Assembly (NCBI GenBank): GCA_030390025.1
Contig: CM059432.1
Coordinates: forward strand, 54,934,001 to 54,998,000
Length of the DNA: 64,000 bases
Source of the DNA: Squalus acanthias
Taxonomy: Eukaryota
Direction of reading: 5' to 3'
In this document: positions 5,791 through 62,734 of the stretch, in pieces
Position numbering within the stretch: the stretch's first letter is position 1
Layout: every line of letters begins with the position of its first letter
Position numbers and translations under genes: made by a program
Notes under the pieces: model-generated
What the model saw: only the letters and a program-made list of their open reading frames with translations
Database searches by the model: none
What the model was told of the DNA's origin: nothing

Positions 5791-6933
5791 TTAGCAGACC
5801 ACAACGATTCTGGAGACCCTGGCTGGTGCGTACTGAGGGGCTCCTCCAGATCTGTCAAGGCATCTGAAGTGCATTTTGAGTGTGCCTATTATCTGCTCTA
5901 TGACACATCTGGTGGAAATATGGCTTTCATTATATCTCTCCTCCGCCTCAGTACTTGGCCTCCTCAAGGGTGTCATGAGCCACGTCTTCAGTGGAGAGCC
6001 CTTGACTCCAAGCAGCCAGCCAGGTAGTCTGTTTGGAGGAGCGAAGAGCTGAGGGAGGGTGGACTGGTGAGGGACAAAAGAGTCATGGCAGCTGCCAGGG
6101 AATTTGGCACACACATGCATGATGATCTTCCTGTGGTTGTAGACCAGCTGCACATTCATGGAGTGGAAGCCTTGGCGGTTGACAAAGACTCCTGGGTTAT
6201 GATGGGGTGCTCTGATGGCCACATGTCTGCAGTCGATGACGCCCTGCACCTGCGGGAAGCCAGCCAGAGCAGCAAAACCGAGCGTCCGCTCACTAACACT
6301 GGCTTCATCAGTGGCAAAGTTGATATAATTGGCTGACTTGTTAAAAAGGGCATCGGTGACCTGTGTGATGCATCCGTGGGCAGCCGACTGCGAGATGCCA
6401 CAAATATCTGCTGCAGAGAACTGGAAGAAGCCTGAGACGAAGAAGTTGAGGGTGCTGGTGACTTTGACAGCCACTGGTAAGGCGTGTCCACCCGTTCCTC
6501 TGGGCTGCAGGTCTTGCTCCAGCAATCTGCTAATGTCTGCGATGACCTGGTTCGATAGCCTGAGCCTCCTTTGACACTGCTGCTCAGTCATGTTGAGGAA
6601 GCTCATCCTCTGCCTGTATACCGTGTTGGGCATATCGCCTCCAGTGCGGTGCAGCCCTGCGCTGATGTCCTCTGTCCTGTGCAGCATCAGGTGGTTGAGG
6701 AGAAGGTTGGTGGTGTTGCTGTTGGTGCTGGTGCTGCTGGTGTTGGGGCTCATCGTAGTCCAATTCTGAGGACCAAGGTGAGACAGTATAAATGGCACCC
6801 ATGCTGATGTAATAGATGGCAGGTCAAGTAGAGATGAGAGAAGCAATCTGTCAATGGAGTGATAGGTTGTACCAGTGAGGTGAGACTGGATGGTGACTTT
6901 GCTGCAAACACTTGCAGCCTGTAGAAAGCTCAA
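5791..6933 (-). pseudogene. Harbinger transposase (HARBI1-like DDE nuclease), defective
   Basis: Motifs [50 protein letters not shown]. The GD(K)GY motif reads GVKGS, and the ORF stops before the usual LHN motif. Confidence 0.88.
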
Positions 6934-8691
6934 TGTGTTCTGGGAATGCAGTAGGTAGGCTGAAAAAGGCGCTTAAGGTCTGACAACAAGGTGGTAATGA
7001 TTTGAATTAGGTCGCCCACCTCTGCCAGTCGGGTCGCTGCCGCACTGGCAAACACGCCCGAGGGAAAGGCGCGTGGGGGCGGGATGATGGCAGGTTCCCG
7101 ATCGCTCCAACTTATTTCAAATTTCCGATCACGCCTGCATGGACACCAGAAAATTCTAGCCGTAATATTTGGAATTTGACAAAGCCAAGAAAGCTAGAAA
7201 TTTAAAGTGCATGACGCTTATCCACAATGGATAATTGTTCCACTGCATAACAATTGGGAGCTTTGCACACTGATCACAAGATAGGCTTGGATGAAGGAGT
7301 CCCTTCTTCCCATTTGATTTCATCCTTGCAGAATACCAACCCTACCACATTTCCATTAGAGCAGCTAGTTGTTTGTTACATCTCCTGGTCTCAATTGCTC
7401 TTCCTGACAATCCATTCCATCTGTCGCTCACCCTCTGTGTAAAGAAATACTTCTGGTGTCTATCCTAAACTTGCCTTTTACAACCTTTTAGCTGTGCCAT
7501 TTAACCTGCTGCCCTGGTGTATCTGCAGATCGTCTTCTGGTGTGAAGGAGGCAGCAGTCAAACACAACCAATGTGTCTTTTGGATGAGACATTAAACTGA
7601 GGCCCCCATCTGCCCCCTCAGGTGGATGTAAATGATTCGTGACACTATTCAAAGAAGAGCAGAAGAGCTATATTGGTGTCCTGGTCAACAATTATCCCTC
7701 AACCAACATCACTCAAACAGATAATCTGGTTATTTATTTAATTGATCTTTGTGGGATCTTGCAGTGCACAAGTTGGCTGTCGCATTTCCCTACATTACAA
7801 CAGTGACTACACTTCAAAAATACTTTCATTGGTCGTGAAGCAGTGTTGCTAATCCAGTTGCTAACACCTACAGTAGATTATTACCAGTAACATTGGTAAT
7901 GTTGGAAAATTGGTTTTACCTGGTGATCACTATAACCAACAGGTAAACCACTGGAAATCAAGTGATTAAAGTAATAGGGCTGATTCCTCAATTGTACGCT
8001 CGCAGGGAGCACTGGTTGGGAAATTGCGGGCCTGCATTGCCTGATTTTCCATCCACTTAAATGAATGGATGGAAAATCAGGCACAGCAGGCCTCTGATTT
8101 TCTGACCAGTGCTGTCTGCTTTGCACCTGGAGCACCTGATTGGTCCTAACTGGGAGGAAGAAGGGAAAGAAACAGGACTCGAATAGACTAGTGGCTTAGC
8201 ACAAGAAGGATAGTCTTTTGACTTTGTGCTCTTGGCAGGGAACCTCACCTACTGACAGTGCAAATCAGAAATTTGGGTGGCTGCTGCCAATGATTTTATT
8301 GTTAGAAGTTGTTGGCAGTACATGCCCACGTTTCCAATATGTGCTCTTAGTGGCCAAGGGTCCCCACTGGGTACGTAAAGTCAGAAAATGACCCCAAATG
8401 TTCTTTTCACTTCTTGCACTTGTTTCAAATCCTGCCCAAATTGATGGGATGAAAGTGTCTGTTGACCATAAAGGCGCTATATGATATGTTTTTGGGGTAT
8501 TTTCAGTCATATGGGTGCTTGGCCATTCCCCAAAACTATGCAAAATTTACTAGTAGTTGACAGTAAACTGACAAATCTCACCGAGAGAGGCCACAGGATG
8601 GTTGATGTGGTAAATAGAAATGAAATGCAGGCTGAGTAGAGGATGATTTACTGTGTCTAATGATGCTGGACCTGACCAGAGTCTGCTGAAA

Positions 8692-13853: not shown

Positions 13854-13983
13854 ACAGAAAATGCTGGAAATACTCAGCAGGTCAGGCAGCATCCGTGGAG
13901 AGAGAAACACAGTTCACATCTCAGGTCAAGATGCTGCCTGACCTGCTGAGTATTTCCAGCATTTATTTCAGATTTACAGCATC
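13854..13983. repeat. Small Penelope-like palindromic remnant
   Basis: 35-bp arms 13859-13893 and 13930-13964; homologous to 60990-61060. Further remnants at about 53398-53470 and 62320-62395. Confidence 0.7.
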
Positions 13984-15597: not shown

Positions 15598-16558
15598 GTG
15601 AAGGGAATTCAGCTTTAAGAGCTGAAGACTGCCATTTCGGAATTCTTTTTAAAGTTATTTTTTTTCAGAAGGCAGTTGAGCTGCAAGGGCTAAAAACTGC
15701 CTATTTTTACGATTTTAATGTTTTTCATTTCAGAAGGCAATTCCACTGCTTTCTGAAATGACAGCCTTGCTTTCAGAGCAGGCTGTTCTTGCTGCAATGA
15801 TGCAGCGGTCACATTACATTGGGGCCTCCTTCCGGGACCAATACCACCAGGACGGCGTTGCACTGTGAGTTTAGCGCTGGGCTAATGTTAATAATTCCCC
15901 AGCGCCACCATTTTCAGCGGCCTTGAACACCGGCACCGGCAGCTTTTTTGCCGTCCACGAATTTCTAGGCCAACGTGTTATAACAGTTAGATATAAAACC
16001 AATATTTCCTACATTACAACAGTATCTATACTGTAAAAGTACTTCATTGACTGTAAACCTCTTTGGGACATCCTGAAGTTGTGAAAGGAGCTAAAGAAAT
16101 GGAAGTCTTTCCTTTCCTTTCTGTTATCTGAAACTTTAATGGCGAAAAAAAAAACCCTCATCGCAATGCCACCTACAGGCATAATAGGTATTGCAGGTGC
16201 ATTCACTGGAAATATCCCATATAGTTAATAGTGGTTTTCAATGTATTTTGAAATGTAATGTTGTGACCCACCTACCATTTTTAATATATATGTTAGATAT
16301 ATAGTTACTCTCCCATGGTGCTGCTGACAGACAACAAAACATATGCTTTCTTTCAAGCACATAATCAAGGTTGGCACTTTAGTGCAATATTGTGGGATTG
16401 CTGCAGAGTCAGAGGTGCTGTCCTTTAGTGAAGACATTAAACCAAGGTATCATCTACCTTTTTGGGTGCTTCAGATGGATGTTAAACATCTCATAGCACC
16501 ATCCAAAAAACATCTCCTGATGTCCTGGCCAACTTTCAACCTATATCATGGAAAATAT

Positions 16559-16766
16559 AGAAGTCGCACAACACCAGGTTATAGTCCAACAGTTTTATTT
16601 TAAATCACAAGCTTTCGGAGCTGCTGCTCCTTCGTCAGGTGACTTCACCTGACGAAGGGGCAGCAGCTCCGAAAGCTTGTGATTTAAAATAAAACTGTTG
16701 GACTATAACCTGGTGTTGTGCGACTTCTCACTTTTGTCCACCCCAGTCCAACACCGGCATCTCCGC
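16559..16766. mobile_element. Penelope-like terminal-repeat remnant as an 84-bp-arm inverted repeat plus tail
   Basis: 16559-16642 pairs with 16645-16728 (1 mismatch). Flanked by atcatggaaaatataga (16545-16561, 16767-16783). Same family as 97-172. Confidence 0.82.
16645..16682 (+). ncRNA. Minimal hammerhead-like motif (mirror copy on the minus strand at 16605-16642)
   Basis: tcac-CTGACGA-a-ggggc-agca-gctcc-GAAA-gc-TT-gtga, with palindromic AAGCTT stem III. Confidence 0.65.
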
Positions 16767-16916
16767 ATCATGGAAAATATAGATTAATTGGACATTCATT
16801 TAATTGCTGTTTGTTGAATATCGCTGGTGCAGAATGGCTGCTGTGTTTGCCCATGTAACAACAATTACTGGTCTGCAAAAGGAAATATTATAAGTGCTTT
16901 GAGATGTTTTGACTTG

Positions 16917-19025
<2,109 letters not shown>

Positions 19026-19074
19026 TATATATATATAATATATATATATATATACACACAGTCATTTCTTTCTG

Positions 19075-25209: not shown

Positions 25210-28200
25210 GGGGGGGGGGGGAAGCTTAACCACCAAGAACAGGTGGGGGGTAAAATTTTTTTTAGAGCAGGTGCGCAACCTGGCTCCAACACACTCACTT
25301 CCGGGTTTAACGGAGGCGCATTTGGATGCTGGTGATAAACCTACACACCAAAGTCGGGGATTTAATTATTGCATGCGAGCAGGTACTTATTGGCCCAATT
25401 AACATCCTTAGGAGACGATATTGAGATCTTTGCAAATTGTTTTTAAATTTAGCTCCAAATTTAACTTGTGCAGCACTGGTTTCCTGGGGCTCGGGAAACT
25501 GACCAGGAGAACGGAGGCAGGTTTGAGCAGCAGTTCAGATGGGCATTTAAATTGGTCATTGTCCCATCTGAATAAAAGTTCACTTATTGCAGCTGGTGTC
25601 TCAGTTCCCTCTAGCAAACGTTTGGCAGAGAGTACATGTGTGGATACAGCTTTTTTCAAACTGGAAGGTTTTCAAATGGACATCAGGATGGGAGGCGTAC
25701 TGGAGGTTTTGACAGAACATCAGAAGAGGAAGCCCATCACCATCCATATGCTGTGGTGGGATCAGCACAGGAGGGAGGCCGAAGTTGCAGGAGGCACTAC
25801 CCACATCACAGGGTTTACAGACAGAGGCTCGGTTTCCTTGACCTCTCGGAAAAGCAGTGTTCCCGCAGGCTGAGGTTGTTATGTCAGGTGGTGGCAGCCA
25901 TCTGCAGCCTTCTAGTGGAAGGCCTGCTCCCTGCTGGCCATGAGTTACCAGTAGCTGTGAAAGTGACCATCACGCTCAACTTTTTCACCTCCGGATCCTA
26001 CCAGGGTGCTGCCGGAGACATATTCAGGTCTCCCAATTGGCTGCACATAACTGCACAAGGCAGGTCGCTGATGGCTTGTTTGCCAGGGCCAATAATGATG
26101 TAAATTTCCCATGACGACACCAGCCAGAGTGAGCGGGCACTTGGCTTCGCCTCCGACAGGATTCCCACAGGTAGAGGGTGCCATCAACTACACACATGTG
26201 GCAATCTGAGCACCACCACAGGAACCAGGAGTGTTTATAAACCACAAGGAATATTCATCCATCAATGCGCAGCTGGTGTGCAACCACAAGAGGTTCATGC
26301 AGGTGCGCGCCAGATTCCAGTGGAGCGGTCATGATGCCTTCATACTGCAGCAGTCTAACATACCAGAACATTTTGTTCCAGGAAACAGACTCCTTCAAAC
26401 TTGGCTCATGACACCGGTGAGGAACCCCACCAATGAGGCGCAGGAGCGCTACGAGAGCCACATGACCACCAGGTGTGTCATCGAGCAAGCCATTTGAATG
26501 TTGAAGATGCACTTCAGGAGGCTGAATAGTTCTGGAGGCATCCTTCAACTCGCTAGCGAGGGTATCCAGAATAAGTGTGCTGCGTCTTGTACAGCCTTGC
26601 ACAGCAGAGAGGATTGAAGGTGGAGGACGACAAAAAGGCTCATCAATCAACTTTGGATGAGGAGCAGGTGGAAGAGGAGGATGAAGATGGGGCATCCATC
26701 ACCAGACCAGCTGCCCTAATATCACAACAGTTCACCTAGTGCAAAACATAAGAAATGAAGTCCTGCGGTTTGCTCCCACCACCAGGACCATCCCTGCCTC
26801 CCCTTTGCACTAAACAGACCTTCAACCACTTATCCACCCATTGCACCGCTGCTCAATGTATAGTCATGCATTAACATTCATCATGAGAAAAGTGAAAGGG
26901 CGAGTTGGCACTTGGGATGCAATAATGGGCAAGATGTGGAAATGGTGCTAATTAATAAATTTTATGTGGGATTAAAAAAAGGAAACTTAACACAACATTC
27001 TGTCAAAGACCCATGTGGATACCCTTGGTGAACTACAATTTCTTCAAATTATGCTTCCCACTGCTTCTACGTGGTGCATCTTGTGTGGCTTTAGCATGGC
27101 TCAGACCCCTACTCTGACTATTGAGATGCTTTTGGCCTACACCCTCCAAGATTTGGAGCCCCCAGGGTCCCAAAGACTGCTCCACCTGCACCTGCACAGG
27201 GGCAGACTTGGCCATCAGGAGCCGAGGCAGCATGTTGGGTACTGGCTGGGGGAGTGAGGGGGGCAACAGGTGAGAAGTGGAAGTGCTTTGAGTGGAGTTC
27301 TCACTCCCATGTCCCCTTTCACGATCATCCCTCTCCTGGGCCAGTGCCACATCACCCCTACCACTCTGCTGCACGCCAACTTGATGGAGATCAGTGACGT
27401 GTTGTAAGATGACGGATAAGGTAGGTCATCCTGTTTAAGGTGGCAGACAAATTAGCATCCAAAGTCTGCATGGGCGTAGTCATGGCCTACATGGACTCAT
27501 TTGAGAGCCGTGCTTGAAGCTCCAAGGAGGCGGCCATTCTCTGCATTGCAGACATTCTAGCAATTCCTTGCGTCACCAACCCACGAGCGATCGAGTTGGA
27601 CTCCTCCATCCGCTTTGCTATTTTGGGGAGTGTGCGTGGCACGCCTGTCAGTACCTGGCCAAGTTGCTGAAGCACCTCTAGCATTCTTCTTCTCAACAAT
27701 AGCCCCCAGGGTTCAGCATCTGTGTCCAGCTGAGCAGAGCTTGGATAGGATTGTGCCCCACGACGCAAACTCTGCACAGCTGTCCCTGCCACCAGTGTCT
27801 GCTCGTGGTCTCTTGAGGTGTGAATCACCAGATGAAAACACAACTATCCAAGTGGCTCCACCAAAGTGTGAGTATCTGCGCTGGTGCATGGCTGTAAGTG
27901 TGACAGTGCACCCTCAGAAGGAATGAGGTCCTCTGAGGAATCATCCTCATTATGTCCTGCGACTCAGTCATGGCAAAGTCATAATCTTGCCAACCATACT
28001 CAATCTTCTCATTGTTCAGTCATTGGTGAAATAAATGTGTCAGAGGTATTTATAATTGTCCCTGTCTCTCCATCTCTGATTGAGAGGGATGCAGACTAGC
28101 CACTTATCTCCAGGGCATCCTCCTCTGTATCTGTGAACTAGACTATTTGTGGCAGCCCACCTCCAATCCCCTCCCTCACACTTTACGCTCTCTTCTCCTA

Positions 28201-31555: not shown

Positions 31556-34500
31556 GGCCAGAATTTTCTAGGGTCCGTGTGGGCGTGACCGGAGGCAGGT
31601 CGGTGGGAAATTTGAAATAAGTTGGAGCGGGTCGGCAACGTGCCATTATCCCGTCCCCCACGCGCCTTTCCTGTTGCGGTAGCGACCCGACGAAGAGGCG
31701 GGCGACCTAATTCAAATCATTACCAGCTTGTTGTCAGACCCTTAAGTGCCTTTTTCAGCCTACCTTTCAAATTTCCCTGGCTGCCCACGAGATTCACACA
31801 GCTCGGGAACCACGTCTGTCAGCCTGAGGCGGGAGTTGAGTGGCCATTGCTCCAGCTGATTAAATGACAGCATGAAATGTACTATAAAAGCTCCCACCTC
31901 ACAGCTGATCACTTTCCTCAGGCAGACACTGTTGCTGACTGCATTTAGCTTTCTACAGGCTGCAAAAGTTTGCAGCAGTCACCATCCAGTCTCACCTCAC
32001 TGGTACAACCTATCACTCCATTGACAGATTGCTTCCCTCATCTCTACTTGACCTGCCATCTATTACATCAGCATGGGTGCCATTTATACTGTCTCACCTT
32101 GGTCCTCAGAATCGGACCACGATGAGCCCCAACACTAGCCGGACCAACATCACTAACCTTCTCCTCAACCACCTGATGCTGCACAGGACAGAGGGAATCA
32201 GCGCAGGGCTGCACCGCGCCGGAGACGATATGCCCAACAGAGGGGATACAGGCAGAGGATGAGCTTCCTTAATATGACCGAGCAGCAGTGCGAAAGGAGG
32301 CTCAGGCTATCGTGGCAGGTTGTCACAGACATCTGCACATTGCTAAAGCAAGACCTGCAGCCCAGAGGAGCGGGTGGACACGCCTTACTAGTGGCAGTCA
32401 GTCATCAGCACCCTCAACTTCTTCACCTCAGGCTCCTTCCAGGGATCTGCAGCAAACATTTGTGGCATCTCACAGTCGGCCGCCCACAGATGCATCACAC
32501 CGATGCCCTCTTTGACAAGTCAGCCAATTATATTGGGCCAGAAATTCGGCTTTCCGGCTTCCTGCGGGTGCAAGCATCGCGCGCGTACTTGCCTGCCGTT
32601 GTGCTTTGGGCCCACGAGGACTTCGGGTCCTGGGCCTCCTCCAGCTGCCGGCGCGCAGTGCTTGTGTATCCCAGGGGCGCAGTTAGTTCGAAGCGTCCCC
32701 TGGGATCACGTGGGCCATGGAGAGCCAATCCTAGCAGGACATTTTCATTCATAGATTTGACAGGAAGACCTGTCAAATCTATGAATAGAGATCAGCCCCA
32801 AAACCGCACTTAAACTTCAAATAAATTGAAAAAAACATCACATTTTTAAAATAACTATAAGTTAAATAAATTAACTACTTTAAACAAAAATTTAATTTTT
32901 GAAAAAATTAATTATACTTTTTAACAGTGCTAAAAATAAACTTACCTTTCTTTAAAGTATCTAAAAAAGATAAACCTGTTGAAAAAATGTTTAAATTGTA
33001 ATTAATTAACCACTTACCTTGTTAAAAACAGGCCTTGCGCCTCCTTTTTAAATGATGCAGAGATGCCGGTGTTGGACTTTTTAAAAAAGTGCAGCTTCTC
33101 CATACTTACCTTCCCGGAGAAACCTGAAAAAAAAAACCTAAGTTCGCTGCGTACGCGCAGCCTCTCCCGCGCACGCGTTCGACTTCTGAACCCCTCCCTT
33201 CAGGGGAACGGAAGTTCCGGTTTCCCGCGCATGCAGGAAACCGGCACTTCAGATGGCCTTACGGGTGAGTACACAGCACGTACTCACCCGACAACAGCCG
33301 AATTTACTTCGCCACTGATGAAGCCAGTGTTACTGAGTGGTCACTCGGCTTTGCCGCTCTGGCTGGCTTCCCATGGGTACAGGGCATCATTGACTGCACA
33401 CATGTGGCCGTCAGGGCATCCCATCATAACCCAGGAGTCTTTGTCAACCGCAAGGGCTTCCACTCAATGTGCAGCTGGTCTGCAACTATAGGAAGATCAT
33501 CATGCATGTGTGTGCCAAATTCCCTGGCAGCTGCCATGACTCTTTCGTCCTTCGCCAATCCACCCTCCCTCAGCTCTTCGCTCCTCCAAACATACTTTCA
33601 AGCTGGCTGCTTGGAGACAAGGGAGACTGAAGACGTGACTCATGACACCCTTGAGGAGACCAAGTACTGAGGCCGAGGAGAGATATAATAAAAGCCACAT
33701 TTCCACCAGATATGTCATAGAGCAGACAATAGGTATGCTCAAAATGCACTTCAGATGCCTTGACAGAACTGGAGGAGCCCTGCAGTATGTACTAGCTAGG
33801 GTCTCTAGATTAGTCGTGGTCTACTGCGCCCTGCAAAACATAGCGCAACAGCGAGGAGCAAGGCACCGAACACACAGCCTCTACAGAGGAGGAGCTGGAG
33901 GAACCTGTGGCCCAGATCCCACCAGCACCCGAGCACATTGCTGCCTGGGAACCAGGGATGGCCTCATCATGGCCAGATTTACTTAACTTTACGCAGTACA
34001 CCCATATGGCTGCCACATGCTGCGCCAGGTTGGCACCATCCCACAGCAACACCATAAAGGAGCCCTACACTGACCAAGCCATTCCTTTCACACTGACCAC
34101 CATTGCTGGAGGTACAGTTATGGCTCATCATTCACTGCAACTCACTAAGCCACTTCCAAAGGAGCACACAAATTTGTCTAAGATCGGAAAGTGGTGAAAA
34201 TAAAGATTTTTATGGTTGACATCACATTAACAGAAACTTGACATTAACATTGAATAAAACACCCAAGTGGCTACCCTTGTGAATCATCTTTCTCTTACGC
34301 GTGGTTCTACGAGGTGTGACCCGTGGCTTCAGCAGATGTAGAGGCAGTCTGCTCACTTCCCTGCTGCGACTGCTTAAGACACTCTTGGCAGACGTCCTCT
34401 GGGTTTTTGAACCGGTTAAGGCCTCGCCAAAGTCTGCTCCTCCTGCGACTGTGCAGGGGCAGACTCGGCTATCGCTGTTCGAGGAGGCATCTGGGGCTCT

Positions 34501-42650: not shown

Positions 42651-42932
<282 letters not shown>

Positions 42933-51810: not shown

Positions 51811-51946
51811 CCCTTAGATTATACCTAGCCTGCAACCCAAAAACTGAGACGGTGCCTGTGCCAGTCCGGTCATCTTTCTGGAAACCTGTTTCCAGAATAT
51901 GCCTGATGTGCTGCAAGTACTGGAGCTCATCATTGACTTGCTGCAT
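51811..51946 (-). CDS. TYMS: Thymidylate synthase exon 1 (coding part)
   Basis: Translates [45 protein letters not shown], matching the TS N-terminal ELQYL and DDRTGTGT motifs. Ends at donor G|GTAAGT. The first in-frame ATG is at 51946; the true start is uncertain. Confidence 0.93.
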
Positions 51947-52260: not shown

Positions 52261-52457
52261 GTGGTGGGAAGTGTGTGCAGTGTTAGTGAAGGACCGCGAC
52301 AGCAGCAGCTTACAACAGGCTGTCAACGCACAGTATGTCAGTCAGTATCTGTGGAGAGAACAGACAGGTTCACTTTCACTGATAAGCTTGTTTATGATGT
52401 TAGAAGCAGCCAGGTATGTGACTGCTAGGTCACAGGTTGAAAACCCCACTGAAACAT

Positions 52458-53185: not shown

Positions 53186-53514
53186 ATAGTGTTTTAAGCA
53201 TCAACATTTTTACCCCCCCCTCACAGCAATTTCCAGGACTTGCCTCCCGAAGGTACTCCTTTTGGTGTATGAATGTATTTTAGTCATCTAATGGCGATCA
53301 GTTTAAAAGTGAAAAATACACAATTTTTATTATGGTAAATATGCCAGAGATGTCAGTTCCGATGAACTGCTCGGGACAGGCAGGAAGGAGGTGCGCACGT
53401 TAACTCTGTTTCTCTTTCCACAGATGTTGCCTGACCGGCTGAATGTTTCTAACATTTTCTGTTTTATTTCATGATTAGATTTCTGTATTTGTTGATTTAA
53501 TAAGCTTATTTTGG

Positions 53515-57027: not shown

Positions 57028-59354
57028 TAAACCTCTCCAAGTGCCCGTTAATTTTTTCCTTGATTATTGTTTCTAAAACTTTACCCACCACTGATGTTAA
57101 ACTGACCGGCCTGTAGTTACTAGGATTGTCCTTACACCCTTTCTTGAACAATGGTGTCACATTTGCTACTTTCCAATCCTCAGGCACCTCCCCCGCATCT
57201 AGGGAAGATTGGAAAATTATGGCAAGCCCTTCTGCTATCTCCTCCCCCAATTCCCTTAGCAATCTGGGATGCAAGCCATCTGGACCAGGTGAGTTATCCA
57301 CTCTAAGCATACCTAGCCTTTCTAGTACATCCTGTCTATCAATTTTCACCACTTCCATTGCTTCTACCTTTTCCACTTCTACCGATATTTTGTCAGCATC
57401 CACCTCCTTAGTAAACACCATTCCAAGGTACTCATTGAGTATTCTAGCCTTGCCCTGCGCCTCTAAGCATATAACACCTTCTTTGTCGCTAATAGGCCCC
57501 ACCCCGCCTCTTACTATGCACTTACTGTTTACATGCCGGTAGAAGATTTTTGGGTTCCCTTTTACATTAACTGCCATTCTACTCTCATTCTCTTTTGCCA
57601 ATCTTATTTTCATCTTCACTTCCCCTCTCAACTTATTGTATTTGGTCTGGTTCTCCTTTGAAGAATTCATCTGACATGCATCATACACCCTCTTTTTTTG
57701 TTTCATCATCTTCTCTATCTCCCTCGTCATCCAAGGAGCCCTTGCTTTGGCTCCCTTACCCTTCCCTCTTGTTGGAATGTACCTAGCCTATACTTGGAAC
57801 ATCTCCTCCTTAAAGATCACCCATTGTTCTGTTACAGTTTTTCCTGTCAGTCTTTGGTTCCATTTTACCCTGGCTAGATCCTTTTGCATCCCATTGAAGT
57901 TAGCCCTATTCCAGTTTAGAAGTTCCACTCTAGATTGTTCCTTGCTCCTCTCCATTGCTAATCTAAATCTTATGATACGATGATCACTCGTACCCAAGTG
58001 TTCTCCCACAGACACTTGGTCGACCTGGCCCACCTCATTCCCCAGCACCAGATCCAGCAATGCCTCCTTCCTAGTTGGGCCAACAACATACTGGTCAAGG
58101 AAAGTCTCCTGAACACATTTCAGAAATTCCTCCCCCTCCTTTCCCTTTACCCTAGCATTATCCCAATCGATATTTGGGTAATTAAAGTCCCCCAATATCA
58201 CCACTCTATAGCTCTTGCATATCTCTGCGATTTCCCTGCAGATTTGCTCCTCTACCTCCCTCTCACTATTTGGAGGCCTATAGAATGCCCCCAATAGCGG
58301 GATCATACCCTTTTTGCTCCTCAACTCTAACCAAATGGATTCTGTCCTTGTCCCCTCAATAACATCCTCCTTTTCCAACACTACAATGTCTTCCTTAATC
58401 AGCACTGCCACCCCACCTCCCTTTTTTCCTTCCCTATCTTTTCTGAACACCTTGTACCCTTGAATATTAAGTGCCCAGTCCTCACCGTTTTTAAGCCACA
58501 TTTCTGTTATTGCCACAACATCATATTGCCACACGGCTAATTGTGCTTGTAGCTCGCCAACCTTATTCACCACACTTTGTGCGTTAATGTACATGCATTC
58601 TAAACCCATTTTTGAATTTTTCGTAGTCTTTCTTGGCCTGCTCCTATCTAATATGGTACTACTTCCGCCTCTGGTACTACTTTCTTCTCTAGTACTATCC
58701 AACACACTCACTCTTTTACGCCCCTTATTCCTCTTTTCTACTCCTATATGCTGGTGCCCATCCCCCTGCCAAGCTAGTTTAAACCCTCCCCAACAGCACT
58801 AACAAACCTCCCCGCGAGAATATTGGTCCCAGCTCTGTTGAGGTGTAACCCATCCGGCTTGTACAGGTCCCACCTTCCCTAGAAACAGTCCCAATGCATC
58901 AGTAATCTAAAGCCCTCCCTCCTGCGCCATCTATCCAACCACGCATTTATCTGTTCTATCCTCCTATTCCTGTACTCACTAGCACGTGGCACCGGGAGTA
59001 TTCCGGAGATTACTACCTTTGAGGTCCTGCTTTTTAATCTCTCTCCTAGCTTCCTAAACACTGCCTACAGGACCTCATCCCTGTTTCTTCCTATGTCGTT
59101 GGTACCGATATGGACAATGACCTCTGGCTGTTCACCCTCTCCCCTTCAGAGTGTCCTGCAGCCGCTCAGTGACATCCTTGACCCTGGCACCAGGGAGGCA
59201 ACATACCATCCTGGAGTCACGTCTGCGGCCACAAAAACACATGTCTGCTCCCCTAACTATCGAATCCCCTACCACTATTGCTCTTCCACTCTTTTTCCTC
59301 CCCCCCACTCCCCCGTGCAGCTGAGCCACCTGTGGTGCTGTGGACTTGTCTCTG

Positions 59355-60188
59355 GCTTCTTCTTAGGCAGTCCCTTGGAACCGAGGATGACTTGCTTCCA
59401 CATTAAAAATGAGTTCGTAGGTGACTGATGAGTCCAATGCGGGACCTACAGTCTCTGCCACAGGTGGGGCAGACGGTGGTTGAAGGGGCAGGTGGGTGGG
59501 GTGCTTGGGTTGACGTGCGCTGCCTGCGTTTGGCTTCCACTTGCTCCCAGCGAAGAGACTCGAGGTATTCGGTGCCTTCCCGGATGCTTCTCCTCCACTT
59601 TGTGCGGTCTTGGGCCAGGGATTCCCAGGTGTCGGTGGGGATGTTGCACTTTTTCAAGGAGGCTTTGAGGGTGTCCTTGAAGCGTTTCCTCTACCCACCT
59701 GGGGTTCTCTTGCCGTGCCGGAGCTCCGAGTAGTGCGCTTGTTTTGGGAGTCTCGTATCGGGCATGTGGACAATGTGACCTGTCCATCGGAGCTGATCGA
59801 GCGTGGTCAAAGCTTCGATGCTGGGGATGTTGGCCTGAGCAAGAACACTGACGTTGGTGCGCCTATCCTGCCAATGGATTTGCAGGATCTTGCGGAGGCA
59901 GCGTTGGTGGTACCTCTCCAGTGCTTTGAGGTGCCTGCTGTACATGGTCCATGTCTCTGAGTCATACAGCAGGGCGGGTATCACTGCTGCTCTGTAGACC
60001 ATGAGCTTAGTGCCGAGTTTGAGGTCCTGGTCTTCAAACACTCTCTTCCTCAGGCAACCGAAGGCTGCACTGGCACACTGAAGGCGGTGTTGGACTTCGA
60101 CGTCTGCCCTTGTTGACAGTAGGCTCCCGAGGTATGGAAAGTGGTCCACGTTGTCCAAGGCCTTGTCGTGGATTTTGATAATTTTGAT
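59355..60188 (-). mobile_element. RTE-clade LINE 3' fragment inserted in CR1 ORF1
   Basis: VDHFPYLGS, ALLYDSETWT, CLRKILQIHWQD, LRWTGHIVHMPDTRLPKQ; C-terminal CPTCGRDCRSRIGLISHLRTH; tail agggactgcctaagaagaa. Confidence 0.88.
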
Positions 60189-60949
60189 AGAGTGTCCTGC
60201 AGTTGCTCAGTGACATCCTTGACCCTGGCACCAGGGAGGCAACATACCATCCTGGAGTCACGTCTGCGGCCGCAAAAACACATGTCTGCTCCCCTAACTA
60301 TCGAATCCCCTACCACTATTGCTCTTCCACTCTTTTTCCTCCCCCCCGCCGTGCAGCTGAGCCACCCGTGGTGCCGTGGACTTGTCTCTGGCTTCTTCTT
60401 AGGCAGTCCCTCGGAACCGAGGATGCTGCACTCCCCACCAGAACACGGAACACAATACTGGTTGGAGAGTGAGATGCACTCCGGGGACTCCTACACTACC
60501 TGCCTGGTCCTCCTCTTCTGTCTGGCGGTCACCCATTCCCTCTCTGTCTGCACACTCTTAAGCTGTGGGGTGACTACCTCCAGAAACGTGCTCTCAGCTA
60601 GCGATGCCCAGATTCCATGAACGAATAAAAAAAAAGAGAGGTTTTTGAAATCACATTTTATTGGACTTGTTGACTTAAAAGCTGACAACTTTCATTTGGC
60701 TGTATAATTAAAACATCTAGCTTACAATTATAGGTTTGATTGAAGGGTTATGGTCCTTTAAAAAGGAATGCCTATCCTCACAGGTTCTCATCTGAAAGAA
60801 TTATTGGGGTATGCTATGAGTCACTAAGAATTGGCAGCAACTCTTGAAATTCAGTTTAGATCAAAATGCATATGCTAAAGATTATACTTATTCTGTTCTA
60901 CAAGTATGTCAGCGCAACAAATTAAAAAAACAACAAGATAATGTTTATG

Positions 60950-61874
60950 ATAGCAAAATACTGCAGATGCTGGAAATCCGAAATAACAACAGAAAACGCT
61001 GGAAAAACTCAGCAGGCCAGGCAGCATCCGTGGAGAGAGAAAGAGAGTTGACGTTTCAGGTCGATGACCTTTCATCAGAACTGGGAAGAGCTGGAAATCA
61101 AATAGATTTAAGGCCAGGGTAAAGCTGGGAAAAGGGGGAGGGGATAAAGGAACAAAGGAGGAGATGAAGAGACATTAAGAGACATTAAGAGATATGCAAG
61201 GCTAGAGGTGGTGTTAATGTGACAGATTAAGGCTGAATGAAGTGTGAAATCTACTGGCAGAATGAAGGACAGCTGCCAGCTTCTAGGAGGAAAAAAAAGG
61301 TGGGGGGGACAAATAAAAGGGTAGATAAAATAAAATATAAATGTGATTGGAGCTGAGGTTATGATCTAAAATTGTTGAACTCGATATTGAGTCCAGAGGG
61401 CTGTAGCGTGCCTAAACGAAAGATGAGGTGCTGTTCCTCGAGCTCGAGGAACAGCACCTCATCTTTCGTTTAGGCACGCTACAGCCCTCTGGACTCAATA
61501 TCGAGTTCAACAATTTTAGATCATAACCTCAGCTCCAATCACATTTATATTTTATTTTATCTACCCTTTTATTTGTCCCCCCCACCTTTTTTTTCCTCCT
61601 AGAAGCTGGCAGCTGTCCTTCATTCTGCCAGTAGATTTCACACTTCATTCAGCCTTAATCTGTCACATTAACACCACCTCTAGCCTTGCATATCTCTTAA
61701 TGTCTCTTAATGTCTCTTCATCTCCTCCTTTGTTCCTTTATCCCCTCCCCCTTTTCCCAGCTTTACCCTGGCCTTAAATCTATTTGATTTCCAGCTCTTC
61801 CCAGTTCTGATGAAAGGTCATCGACCTGAAACGTCAACTCTCTTTCTCTCTCCACGGATGCTGCCTGGCCTGCT
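60950..61874. mobile_element. Penelope-like element remnant forming a perfect palindrome (arms 61011-61442 and 61443-61874)
   Basis: Flanked by the 15-bp direct repeat aagataatgtttatg (60935-60949, 61875-61889). Encodes a GIY-YIG-type C-terminus LEEQHLIFRLGTLQPSGLNIEFNNFRS* (61443-61526) and carries a hammerhead motif. Confidence 0.88.
61803..61839 (+). ncRNA. Minimal type-I hammerhead ribozyme motif (mirror copy on the minus strand at 61046-61082)
   Basis: agtt-CTGATGA-a-aggtc-atc-gacct-GAAA-cg-TC-aact: core boxes, 5-bp stem II, 4-bp stem I, palindromic ACGT stem III. Confidence 0.8.
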
Positions 61875-62734
61875 AAGATAATGTTTATGGTGTTTCTCAG
61901 TGTATTTTATGGTGGTAGGGAAATCATGGGACTAAATGCAACAGAGTAAATCTTCCATGATTACGCTGAAAGCAGCTGCCTTTTTCATACAATTTCAGTG
62001 TAGATGAAAGCTGGGATTTTCCCTCAAACTCGGGTTTGATAATTAGGGTACAGCGAGACTTGGTGGATTGTAGACCAGGAATTTGCATACTTAGAAGTGC
62101 TTGCGGGTAGGCCAGCTGCCTTTTTTCCATTACATAATGTGGAGTGCCAACACCCAAAGTGTAGCAGCACTGTGGATGCTGAGGAATGCATTATCGATTC
62201 GTAGAGTTTTGTTCTGATACTAGAGGTTATGAAAAGATAAGCAACTCTTGTATCACTTTGGATCCAATTCAGGAATTGTGCAAAGTAAGAAAGAGATTCA
62301 CAATGAAAGAACTACACCTGAAGTGTTGGCTTGTCTGTTCTCTCTAAAGGTGCTGACTGACCTGTGTGTTTCCAGCATTTTCTATTTTTGTTTTAGAAAA
62401 CAGGTTAATTTTCTTGTATAAATATTATTTAAGATCGCAACAATTTCTGCTTCAAGACATCCATTTCTGCTTCTCTACTAGTTTGCCACAAGGCTGGCTT
62501 CCACAGACTGGATGAAGAGATTTCCAGTGTTCAGTTACAAGCTCAAACATGATTGTCTGTTGAACGATGACAGGGAGGAAGCCCTTAATTGTTAACCTGG
62601 ACAGTGAGAACTCAGGGCTAGAATTAAGCAGAGCAATCTGTCACTGATCCTAAAAGCTATATTTTTTTCACCAGAACAGTATAATTCTTTCTTATAACTG
62701 TAGTAAATGACTTCCAATAATGCACTATAAGGGT

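What the first reader, a model, noticed from the sequence alone, without database searches (positions are those of the whole stretch)
60935..61889. 864-bp spacer-less perfect palindrome from a Penelope-like insertion, with a hammerhead ribozyme on each strand
Seen: 61011-61442 appears to be the exact reverse complement of 61443-61874, centred on CTCGAG|CTCGAG, and is bounded by a 15-bp direct repeat. Each arm holds the end of a GIY-YIG-type ORF (LGTLQPSGLN) and a hammerhead core (CTGATGA...GAAA..TC). Known: Penelope-like elements carry minimal hammerheads and often insert as inverted terminal repeats; long perfect palindromes extrude cruciforms and are unstable. Inference: a very young fold-back insertion primed at the short internal palindrome. 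Any read-through transcript would either self-cleave or fold into about 430 bp of dsRNA (endo-siRNA/ADAR substrate), about 9 kb upstream of TYMS.
Basis: partly seen in the sequence, partly recalled or inferred. Interest (0 to 1): 0.75.

Follow-up and report, generated by a model that had tools for sequence, protein, structure and literature searches.

The report
Young Penelope insertion forming perfect palindrome
A jumping gene of the Penelope type recently left two back-to-back copies of its tail end here, making an unusually long flawless DNA palindrome; the layout is already described for this class, and no effect on the nearby gene is shown.

Summary
Observation confirmed: 61011-61442 and 61443-61874 are exact 432-bp reverse complements with no spacer, inside a 15-bp target duplication; the left copy carries 61 extra bases (a one-sided 'tail'). 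The arm's 27-codon frame is the extreme C-terminus of RT + GIY-YIG proteins. Each arm holds a minimal hammerhead. In 3 of 3 DNA runs laid, a flank contig stops matching exactly at the duplication's end and runs on, so the site is empty there: the insertion is young. Inverted copy + tail + duplication is the published Penelope layout. It recurs twice more in this window, and this scan noted it before in other shark DNA. What is unusual is the length and the zero spacer. In read-through RNA of either strand the ribozyme is buried in the 432-bp duplex (73 kcal/mol to free it), so self-cleavage is unlikely. Read-through and an effect on TYMS (9.0 kb away) are not shown. No run from the source individual was found, so the centre junction is unverified by reads.

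The parts
60935..60949 (.). Target-site duplication, left copy (15 bp)
   Evidence: flank contigs of X1, X3 and X6 stop matching exactly at 60949
60950..61010 (-). One-sided 61-bp 3' extension ('tail') of the minus-strand copy, absent from the right copy
   Evidence: family ends cluster at 60949-60952 and 60976-60983 (table 7)
61011..61442 (-). Left arm: 5'-truncated Penelope-like 3' end (ORF end, 3' region, pLTR part), reading toward TYMS
61441..61444 (.). Centre: native self-complementary 4-mer AGCT, zero spacer
   Evidence: other family copies match through 61444 and then diverge (36 contigs in X1, 7 in X11)
61443..61874 (+). Right arm: exact inverted copy, ending 61 nt short of the left copy's end
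61443..61526 (+). Last 27 codons plus stop of an RT + C-terminal GIY-YIG ORF
   Evidence: HMM of 19 long RT proteins: match at positions 866-887 of 889, E 9.5e-5, best of 1000 shuffles E 6.7; 4 of 5 such proteins scanned match both RVT_1 and GIY-YIG
61359..61442 (-). Mirror copy of the ORF end
61803..61839 (+). Minimal type-I hammerhead: stem I 4 bp, CUGAUGA, bulged A, stem II 5 bp, GAAA-CG-UC, no loop III; GUC triplet, predicted cut after 61835
   Evidence: matches the description in PMC4209133
61046..61082 (-). Mirror minimal hammerhead, predicted cut after 61050
60950..61075 (-). Frame open from the ATG in the hammerhead core through the tail (42 codons); possibly the ORF start carried in the pLTR
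   Evidence: no match to the 22 homologous proteins compared, so unconfirmed
61875..61889 (.). Target-site duplication, right copy (15 bp)
51812..51946 (-). Context: thymidylate synthase (TYMS) first coding exon, 9.0 kb downstream of the left copy
   Evidence: Pfam PF00303 37.4 bits, cut-off 24.3

Best explanation
This is one recent insertion of an endonuclease-bearing Penelope-like retroelement (PLE), most likely in a cartilaginous fish. It consists of two 5'-truncated 3' ends joined head-to-head, with a tail on one side and a 15-bp target duplication. I put this identity at about 0.92. Most likely mechanism (inferred, about 0.55 given the identity): the GIY-YIG endonuclease nicked both target strands 15 bp apart. 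Each 3'-OH primed reverse transcription on RNA from one source copy, one at the usual outer start and one 61 nt inside. The two antisense cDNAs can pair with each other only at a self-complementary word; they annealed at the native AGCT, flaps were trimmed, and each strand was copied on the other. This gives a zero-spacer palindrome. The product is a dead, non-coding remnant. If it is read through, it forms a 432-bp hairpin that sequesters the ribozyme. It is probably unstable. Shown here: geometry, homology, the empty site in three runs, the native centre. Inferred: nicking, dual priming, annealing, instability.
For: Geometry and TSD. ORF-end homology. Family of 28067, 20419 and 35894 contigs laid in three DNA runs, with ends clustered at two sites about 30 nt apart; this fits the two RT start sites behind the tail in PMC11167929. 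Empty site in 3 of 3 DNA runs. Both arms share 6 letters that differ from the family majority, e.g. 61323, where 99% of depth in X1 and X3 has the other letter: one template, one event. The two letters past the centre match the native element (about 1 in 16 by chance; a single event). PAc cleaves and extends both target strands in vitro and is predicted to be a dimer. L1 insertions with opposite-orientation parts are attributed to joining of two RT-extended ends (PMC11702581 section 7). Inverted copy, palindromic junction, one-sided tail and TSD are described in PMC3846280 and PMC8557442. Read-through MFE keeps the full 432-bp stem on both strands.
Against: The right end (equivalent to 61011) is not among the 24 of 1178 loose-end rows shown, and 61 nt is twice the 30-40-bp tail in print, so dual priming needs a non-standard internal start (only 2-3 nt of primer-template pairing, one a wobble). 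A cDNA fold-back with a 4-nt AGCT loop, closed by a wobble or by one untemplated base, yields the same sequence. PMC3846280 interprets such junction palindromes as self-priming. The other two inverted pairs in the window have a 2-4-nt spacer or strong asymmetry and fit either model. The letters beyond 60949 in the empty-site contigs were not printed, and no laid run carries the insertion.
Confidence: 0.5

Rival explanations
1. The same PLE insertion, but made by self-priming: one cDNA primed at the left nick folded back at AGCT, was copied to 61 nt short of its start, and was then joined to the right target end.
For: PMC3846280 discussion. It explains identical arms and a right end away from the family's main start sites. 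A 4-nt AGCT loop is allowed in the DNA fold.
Against: The native sequence gives only a wobble or needs an untemplated base to close the loop; a better native fold-back 11 nt further on would leave a 7-nt spacer, which is not seen (inferred from the loose-end consensus). A self-complementary centre is then a 1-in-16 coincidence.
Confidence: 0.32
2. A PLE inverted insertion that first had a spacer or mismatches and was made perfect later by centre deletion or arm-to-arm gene conversion.
For: The other in-window pairs are imperfect. The native sequence carries AGCT twice, 11 nt apart, a possible deletion substrate.
Against: The insertion is young (absent in 3 of 3 DNA runs). Perfect spacer-less palindromes are the less stable form (PMC7999016 passages), so change toward perfection is the less expected direction (inference).
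Confidence: 0.07
3. Assembly or polishing artefact: a single arm mirrored by chimeric fold-back reads, or imperfect arms homogenised by polishing.
For: No read evidence for the centre was obtained. PLE inverted structures are noted to trouble assemblies (PMC8557442).
Against: The mirror stops inside the element and does not mirror tail or flank. It is followed by the second TSD copy and unique DNA. The 491 further letters of the X1 and X3 contigs would end at 62380, inside a repeat relic where a contig is expected to break. The same layout occurs at 16545-16783.
Confidence: 0.07
4. A functional regulatory module: a ribozyme switch or endo-siRNA/ADAR source acting on TYMS or on the PLE family.
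For: The left copy points toward TYMS on the same strand, 9.0 kb away. Read-through would give 432 bp of dsRNA matching an abundant family. Penelope copies yield small RNAs in a rotifer (PMC3846280).
Against: The site is empty in both samples of organism A and in organism B, so it is not conserved. The ribozyme is sequestered on both strands. Minimal hammerheads showed no cleavage as monomers and low cleavage as dimers (PMC4209133).
Confidence: 0.04

Closest known systems
Complex insertions of EN+ Penelope-like elements: inverted pLTR, tail, TSD (Adineta Pen2a, Pen2, Pen3a; PMC3846280, passages and discussion read; PMC8557442, passages read)
   Same: Head-to-head inverted 5'-truncated copy, palindrome at the junction, tail on one side only, TSD, AT-rich target.
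   Different: Only the last 27 codons are kept. The perfect palindrome is 864 bp, against the 18-38-bp junction palindromes reported there. The extension is 61 nt against 30-40 bp, and the TSD is 15 bp against 8-10 bp.
PAc, Poseidon element of Anolis carolinensis (PMC11167929, parts 1-2 of 4 read: results and start of methods)
   Same: RT plus C-terminal GIY-YIG, hammerhead in the pLTR, two family end sites about 30 nt apart, 96 and 126 nt after an ATG in the hammerhead.
   Different: This copy's second end is at 65 nt after that ATG, not at either main site. The PLE clade (Poseidon, Neptune or other) was not determined here.
Minimal hammerheads of metazoan PLEs (PMC4209133, parts 1-2 of 4 read)
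   Same: No loop III, palindromic ACGU at helix III, bulged base before stem II, 4-bp stem I. Pairs on opposite strands 100-700 bp apart are reported there.
   Different: Stem II is 5 bp. The triplet is GUC, where 86-94% of family depth in X1 and X3 has GUU. The two cores lie about 730 bp apart.
L1 twin priming and two-template inverted insertions (PMC11702581, passages and section 7 read)
   Same: Both target ends can be extended by RT; products join by microhomology; the TSD is kept.
   Different: L1 twin priming gives adjacent, nearly non-overlapping segments (1-10-bp overlap or gap); here both products cover the same 432 nt. Different enzyme class and no poly(A).

Membership tests
EN+ Penelope-like element | Single ORF with RT and C-terminal GIY-YIG endonuclease | tested here: met
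   Only the last 27 codons are present. They match the extreme C-terminus of 600-1100-aa proteins; 4 of 5 scanned match RVT_1 and GIY-YIG. The peptide alone has no Pfam hit.
EN+ Penelope-like element | Telomerase-related RT clade placement (Penelope/Poseidon, Neptune, Nematis) | not tested
   No RT sequence at this locus; no tree was built.
EN+ Penelope-like element | pLTR downstream of the ORF carrying a hammerhead motif | tested here: met
   Core at 61807, 284 nt after the last sense codon; not found by Rfam.
EN+ Penelope-like element | Adjacent inverted 5'-truncated copy, head-to-head | tested here: met
EN+ Penelope-like element | 30-40-bp tail at one end only | tested here: inconclusive
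   The family has two end clusters about 30 nt apart. This copy's one-sided extension is 61 nt.
EN+ Penelope-like element | Target-site duplication at an AT-rich site | tested here: met
   15 bp, 12 of 15 A/T; empty site in 3 of 3 DNA runs.
Minimal PLE hammerhead | CUGANGA, GAAA, UH, stems I and II, palindromic positions 15.2-16.2 | tested here: met
   stem II pair probabilities 0.93-0.95, stem I 0.11-0.50
Minimal PLE hammerhead | Self-cleavage as a dimer | not testable with these tools
   The modelled active dimer is -11.1 kcal/mol against a dimer MFE of -23.9; the model ignores core tertiary contacts. Needs an assay.
Non-LTR retrozyme | Head-to-tail tandem units, each with a hammerhead, non-coding | tested here: not met
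   The copies are inverted and hold a PLE ORF end; definition from 10.64898/2026.07.22.740005 passages.
Endo-siRNA hairpin locus | Transcription through both arms and processing into small RNAs | not testable with these tools
   No RNA run from a carrier was available.

The most novel reading that the evidence does not exclude
Penelope's inverted repeats are built by priming from both target nicks, and the two overlapping cDNAs are joined at self-complementary microhomology. A long zero-spacer palindrome centred on a native AGCT would then be a direct genomic footprint of that step. An active, very abundant family would be a running source of long perfect palindromes (fragile sites and family-wide dsRNA) in these genomes. 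I did not find this model stated for PLEs in searches, which cover open-licence papers only; PMC8557442 calls the origin of these structures undefined.
Probability: 0.4. Interest if true: 0.5.

Novelty: new member of a known kind. Interest (0 to 1): 0.25.

Why it matters
As a locus it matters little: it is one young remnant of a family with tens of thousands of matching contigs, in a published layout. As a specimen it is useful. How PLEs make inverted repeats is still open, and a flawless young copy with a known empty site, a zero spacer and a native AGCT centre sets up a genome-wide test between dual priming and fold-back. An 864-bp perfect palindrome is also rare (PMC7999016 cites 718 near-perfect palindromes over 200 bp in the human genome), so it is a natural substrate for watching palindrome decay in a vertebrate germ line.

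Tried and rejected
No whole genome is held, so no genome-wide count of junctions was possible. Rfam: 9 matches, none a hammerhead; 6 are microRNA models hitting the hairpin centre below their gathering scores and were rejected. The 27-aa peptide has no Pfam hit and the Atlas gave no usable hit. One search covered the whole of P0005 and returned only neuromedin-U receptors among the 120 of 1180 rows listed; it was uninformative. Two pattern scans of metagenome contigs found 0 matches. RNA run X11 has no depth on the unique flank 60658-60918; contigs do not show absence and that individual's genotype is unknown, so this is not used as evidence. Pfam on 45 ORFs picked from the longer list (three low-repeat zones between TYMS and 62760) found no host exon above a cut-off; this does not exclude an intron. 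The idea that the right arm ends opposite the family's second end site in a tail stem-loop was rejected: the fold is not better than shuffles (z -0.91, 34 of 200) and the site is blurred over 60976-60983. The hammerhead segment is also not unusually stable (z -1.19). The 42-codon frame from the hammerhead ATG matched none of 22 homologues. CTCGAG as the priming word was rejected: joining there would centre the palindrome on CTC|GAG. Supplement lists of PMC11167929 and PMC8557442 were seen but no file was read; they may hold junction data or shark families that bear on novelty. 10.1101/2024.08.27.596794 gave one irrelevant passage.

Full report
1. Observation. The palindrome is real in the assembly: arms 61011-61442 and 61443-61874, 432 bp, no mismatch, no spacer (one search reports 435 nt by extending over one mismatch). 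The next-longest perfect arm in the window is 9 bp, and 20 of 20 shuffles gave 7-12 bp. A 15-bp direct repeat at 60935-60949 and 61875-61889 occurs only there in the window. The insertion is asymmetric: the minus-strand copy runs 493 bp (60950-61442), the plus-strand copy 432 bp, so 61 bp are present on the left only. Both copies read outward from the centre (head-to-head).

2. Identity. The arm starts with 27 codons and a stop. The peptide has no Pfam hit alone. A search of 1.84 billion representatives with the 36-aa frame gave 7 hits at 66-81% identity, mostly short or chimeric gene models. Walking outward through P0005 and P0128 gave 19 proteins of 609-1127 aa, all with precomputed PF00078. 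A profile of those 19 matches the window peptide at positions 866-887 of 889 (E 9.5e-5; best of 1000 shuffles E 6.7). Of 5 scanned, 4 match both RVT_1 and GIY-YIG, and 1 matches RVT_1 only. So this is the end of an RT + C-terminal GIY-YIG ORF, the PLE layout. The closest named relatives are from Rhinoraja and Chiloscyllium, which points to a cartilaginous fish (inference). The PLE clade was not determined.

3. Hammerhead. A descriptor finds CUGAUGA at 61807, a bulged A, a 5-bp stem II, GAAA-CG-UC and a 4-bp stem I, with the cut after 61835 and its mirror. It found 5 hits in the window, all in PLE-like repeats, and none in 100 of 100 shuffles. Rfam lists no hammerhead among 9 matches. The motif fits the minimal hammerheads of PMC4209133 (parts 1-2 of 4 read): no loop III, palindromic 15.2-16.2, no cleavage as a monomer, low cleavage as a dimer. 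That paper also reports pairs on opposite strands. The active-like monomer scores -6.5 kcal/mol against an MFE of -9.6, and the active-like dimer -11.1 against -23.9; these numbers ignore tertiary contacts. In a read-through transcript of either strand, the antisense arm comes first and the MFE keeps the whole 432-bp stem; freeing the ribozyme segment costs 73 kcal/mol.

4. Age and family (4 of the 24 runs listed; contigs only; stretch 60600-61464, so the right arm and right flank were not in the reference). In X1 and X3 (organism A, two samples, two studies) one contig matches 60607-60949 and 60610-60949, and 491 more letters do not match the element. In X6 (organism B) a plus-strand contig matches 60603-60949 and runs 276 letters further. 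All three stop exactly at the end of the duplication, as an empty site would. The letters beyond were not printed. If they are the right flank, 491 letters end at 62380, inside a PLE relic where a contig should break. For X1 and X3 this reading assumes that record coordinates follow the record's own strand; X6 needs no such assumption. X1 and X3 differ from the window at 60638, 60682 and 60810 plus one gap, and X6 shares those three letters, so none is the source individual. Whether the insertion is polymorphic within one species or fixed in a close sister is open. Zero differences in 432 pairs bound arm divergence below about 0.7%. The family is large: 28067, 20419 and 35894 contigs were laid in the DNA runs and 2110 in X11. 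Its 3' ends cluster at 60949-60952 and 60976-60983 (24 of 1178 loose-end rows shown), the roughly 30-nt tail. Both arms share 6 letters that differ from the majority of family depth in X1 and X3 (depth is not copy number), which indicates one template.

5. Known layout. PMC3846280 (passages and discussion read) describes an inverted pLTR, a 31-bp tail on one side, TSDs of 8-10 bp and 18-38-bp palindromes at head-to-head junctions, read as self-priming on an antisense template. PMC8557442 (passages) calls the adjacent inverted 5'-truncated copy frequent and its origin undefined. The window holds two more such pairs: 16545-16783 (another family; 17-bp TSD, 84-bp arms with 1 mismatch, 2-nt spacer, one-sided 38-nt tail) and a decayed pair at 13854-13983. 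Earlier notes of this scan reported short palindromic PLE insertions in other shark genomes (unchecked AI notes).

6. Mechanism. At both ends a target 3' end runs into element antisense sequence, which both models allow. Other family copies match two letters past the centre, so the centre is the native self-complementary AGCT. Two antisense cDNAs can anneal only at such a word, and copying each on the other gives exactly a zero spacer. PAc cleaves and extends both target strands in vitro, starts RT internally and is predicted to be a dimer (PMC11167929, parts 1-2 of 4 read). Joining of two RT-extended ends is proposed for opposite-orientation L1 products (PMC11702581). Against this: the right end is not at a listed family end site, and a fold-back with an AGCT loop closed by a wobble or one untemplated base gives the same sequence. 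One junction is worth about 1 in 16, no more. I put dual priming at 0.50, fold-back at 0.32, later symmetrisation at 0.07, artefact at 0.07 and a functional module at 0.04.

7. Context and function. TYMS exons at 51812-51946 and within 42651-42932 (minus strand) pass the Pfam cut-off. The insertion is 9.0 kb upstream, beyond several kb of LINE-derived DNA. The left copy points toward TYMS, but nothing here shows transcription, small RNAs, editing or regulation, and the site is empty in the related genomes laid. Perfect spacer-less palindromes are the least stable kind (PMC7999016 passages), so decay is the expected fate (inference).

8. Verdict. A real, young PLE insertion in a published layout, extreme in length and perfection: new member of a known kind, interest 0.25. 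Its value is as a clean specimen for the open question of how PLEs build inverted repeats.

Noticed in passing
window 16545-16783: A second PLE family in the same layout: 17-bp TSD, 84-bp arms with 1 mismatch, 2-nt spacer, one-sided 38-nt tail, minimal hammerhead cores at 16638 (-) and 16649 (+).
   Followed up: partly
window about 94-180: A single copy of that second family with a minimal hammerhead core at 101 (+).
   Followed up: no
window 13854-13983: An older, asymmetric head-to-head pair of 3' ends related to the focal family (78-91% identity).
   Followed up: partly
window 52314-52378, 53397-53470, 62303-62393: Decayed single 3'-end relics of the same PLE group (67-83% identity); one lies about 370-430 bp upstream of the TYMS start codon.
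   Followed up: no
window about 16900-19050: A roughly 2.2-kb tetranucleotide microsatellite, seen as long SIYL-repeat frames.
   Followed up: no
window 5791-6972 (-): A 393-aa frame that resembles a PIF/Harbinger-type transposase (name recalled, not tested); related pieces lie near 26200, 32200 and 33300-34000.
   Followed up: no
window 59148-59389 and 60189-60425: Direct repeats of 159 bp (98%) and 88 bp (92%) about 1040 bp apart around an RT-like LINE fragment: possibly a nested insertion or local duplication.
   Followed up: no
proteins P0001, P0003, P0005: Database gene models fuse this PLE C-terminus to host proteins (VKOR-like, ATP synthase c-like, a Rhinoraja neuromedin-U receptor): mis-annotation or exonisation.
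   Followed up: no
window 61050 and 61835: This copy has a GUC cleavage triplet where 86-94% of family depth in X1 and X3 has GUU.
   Followed up: partly
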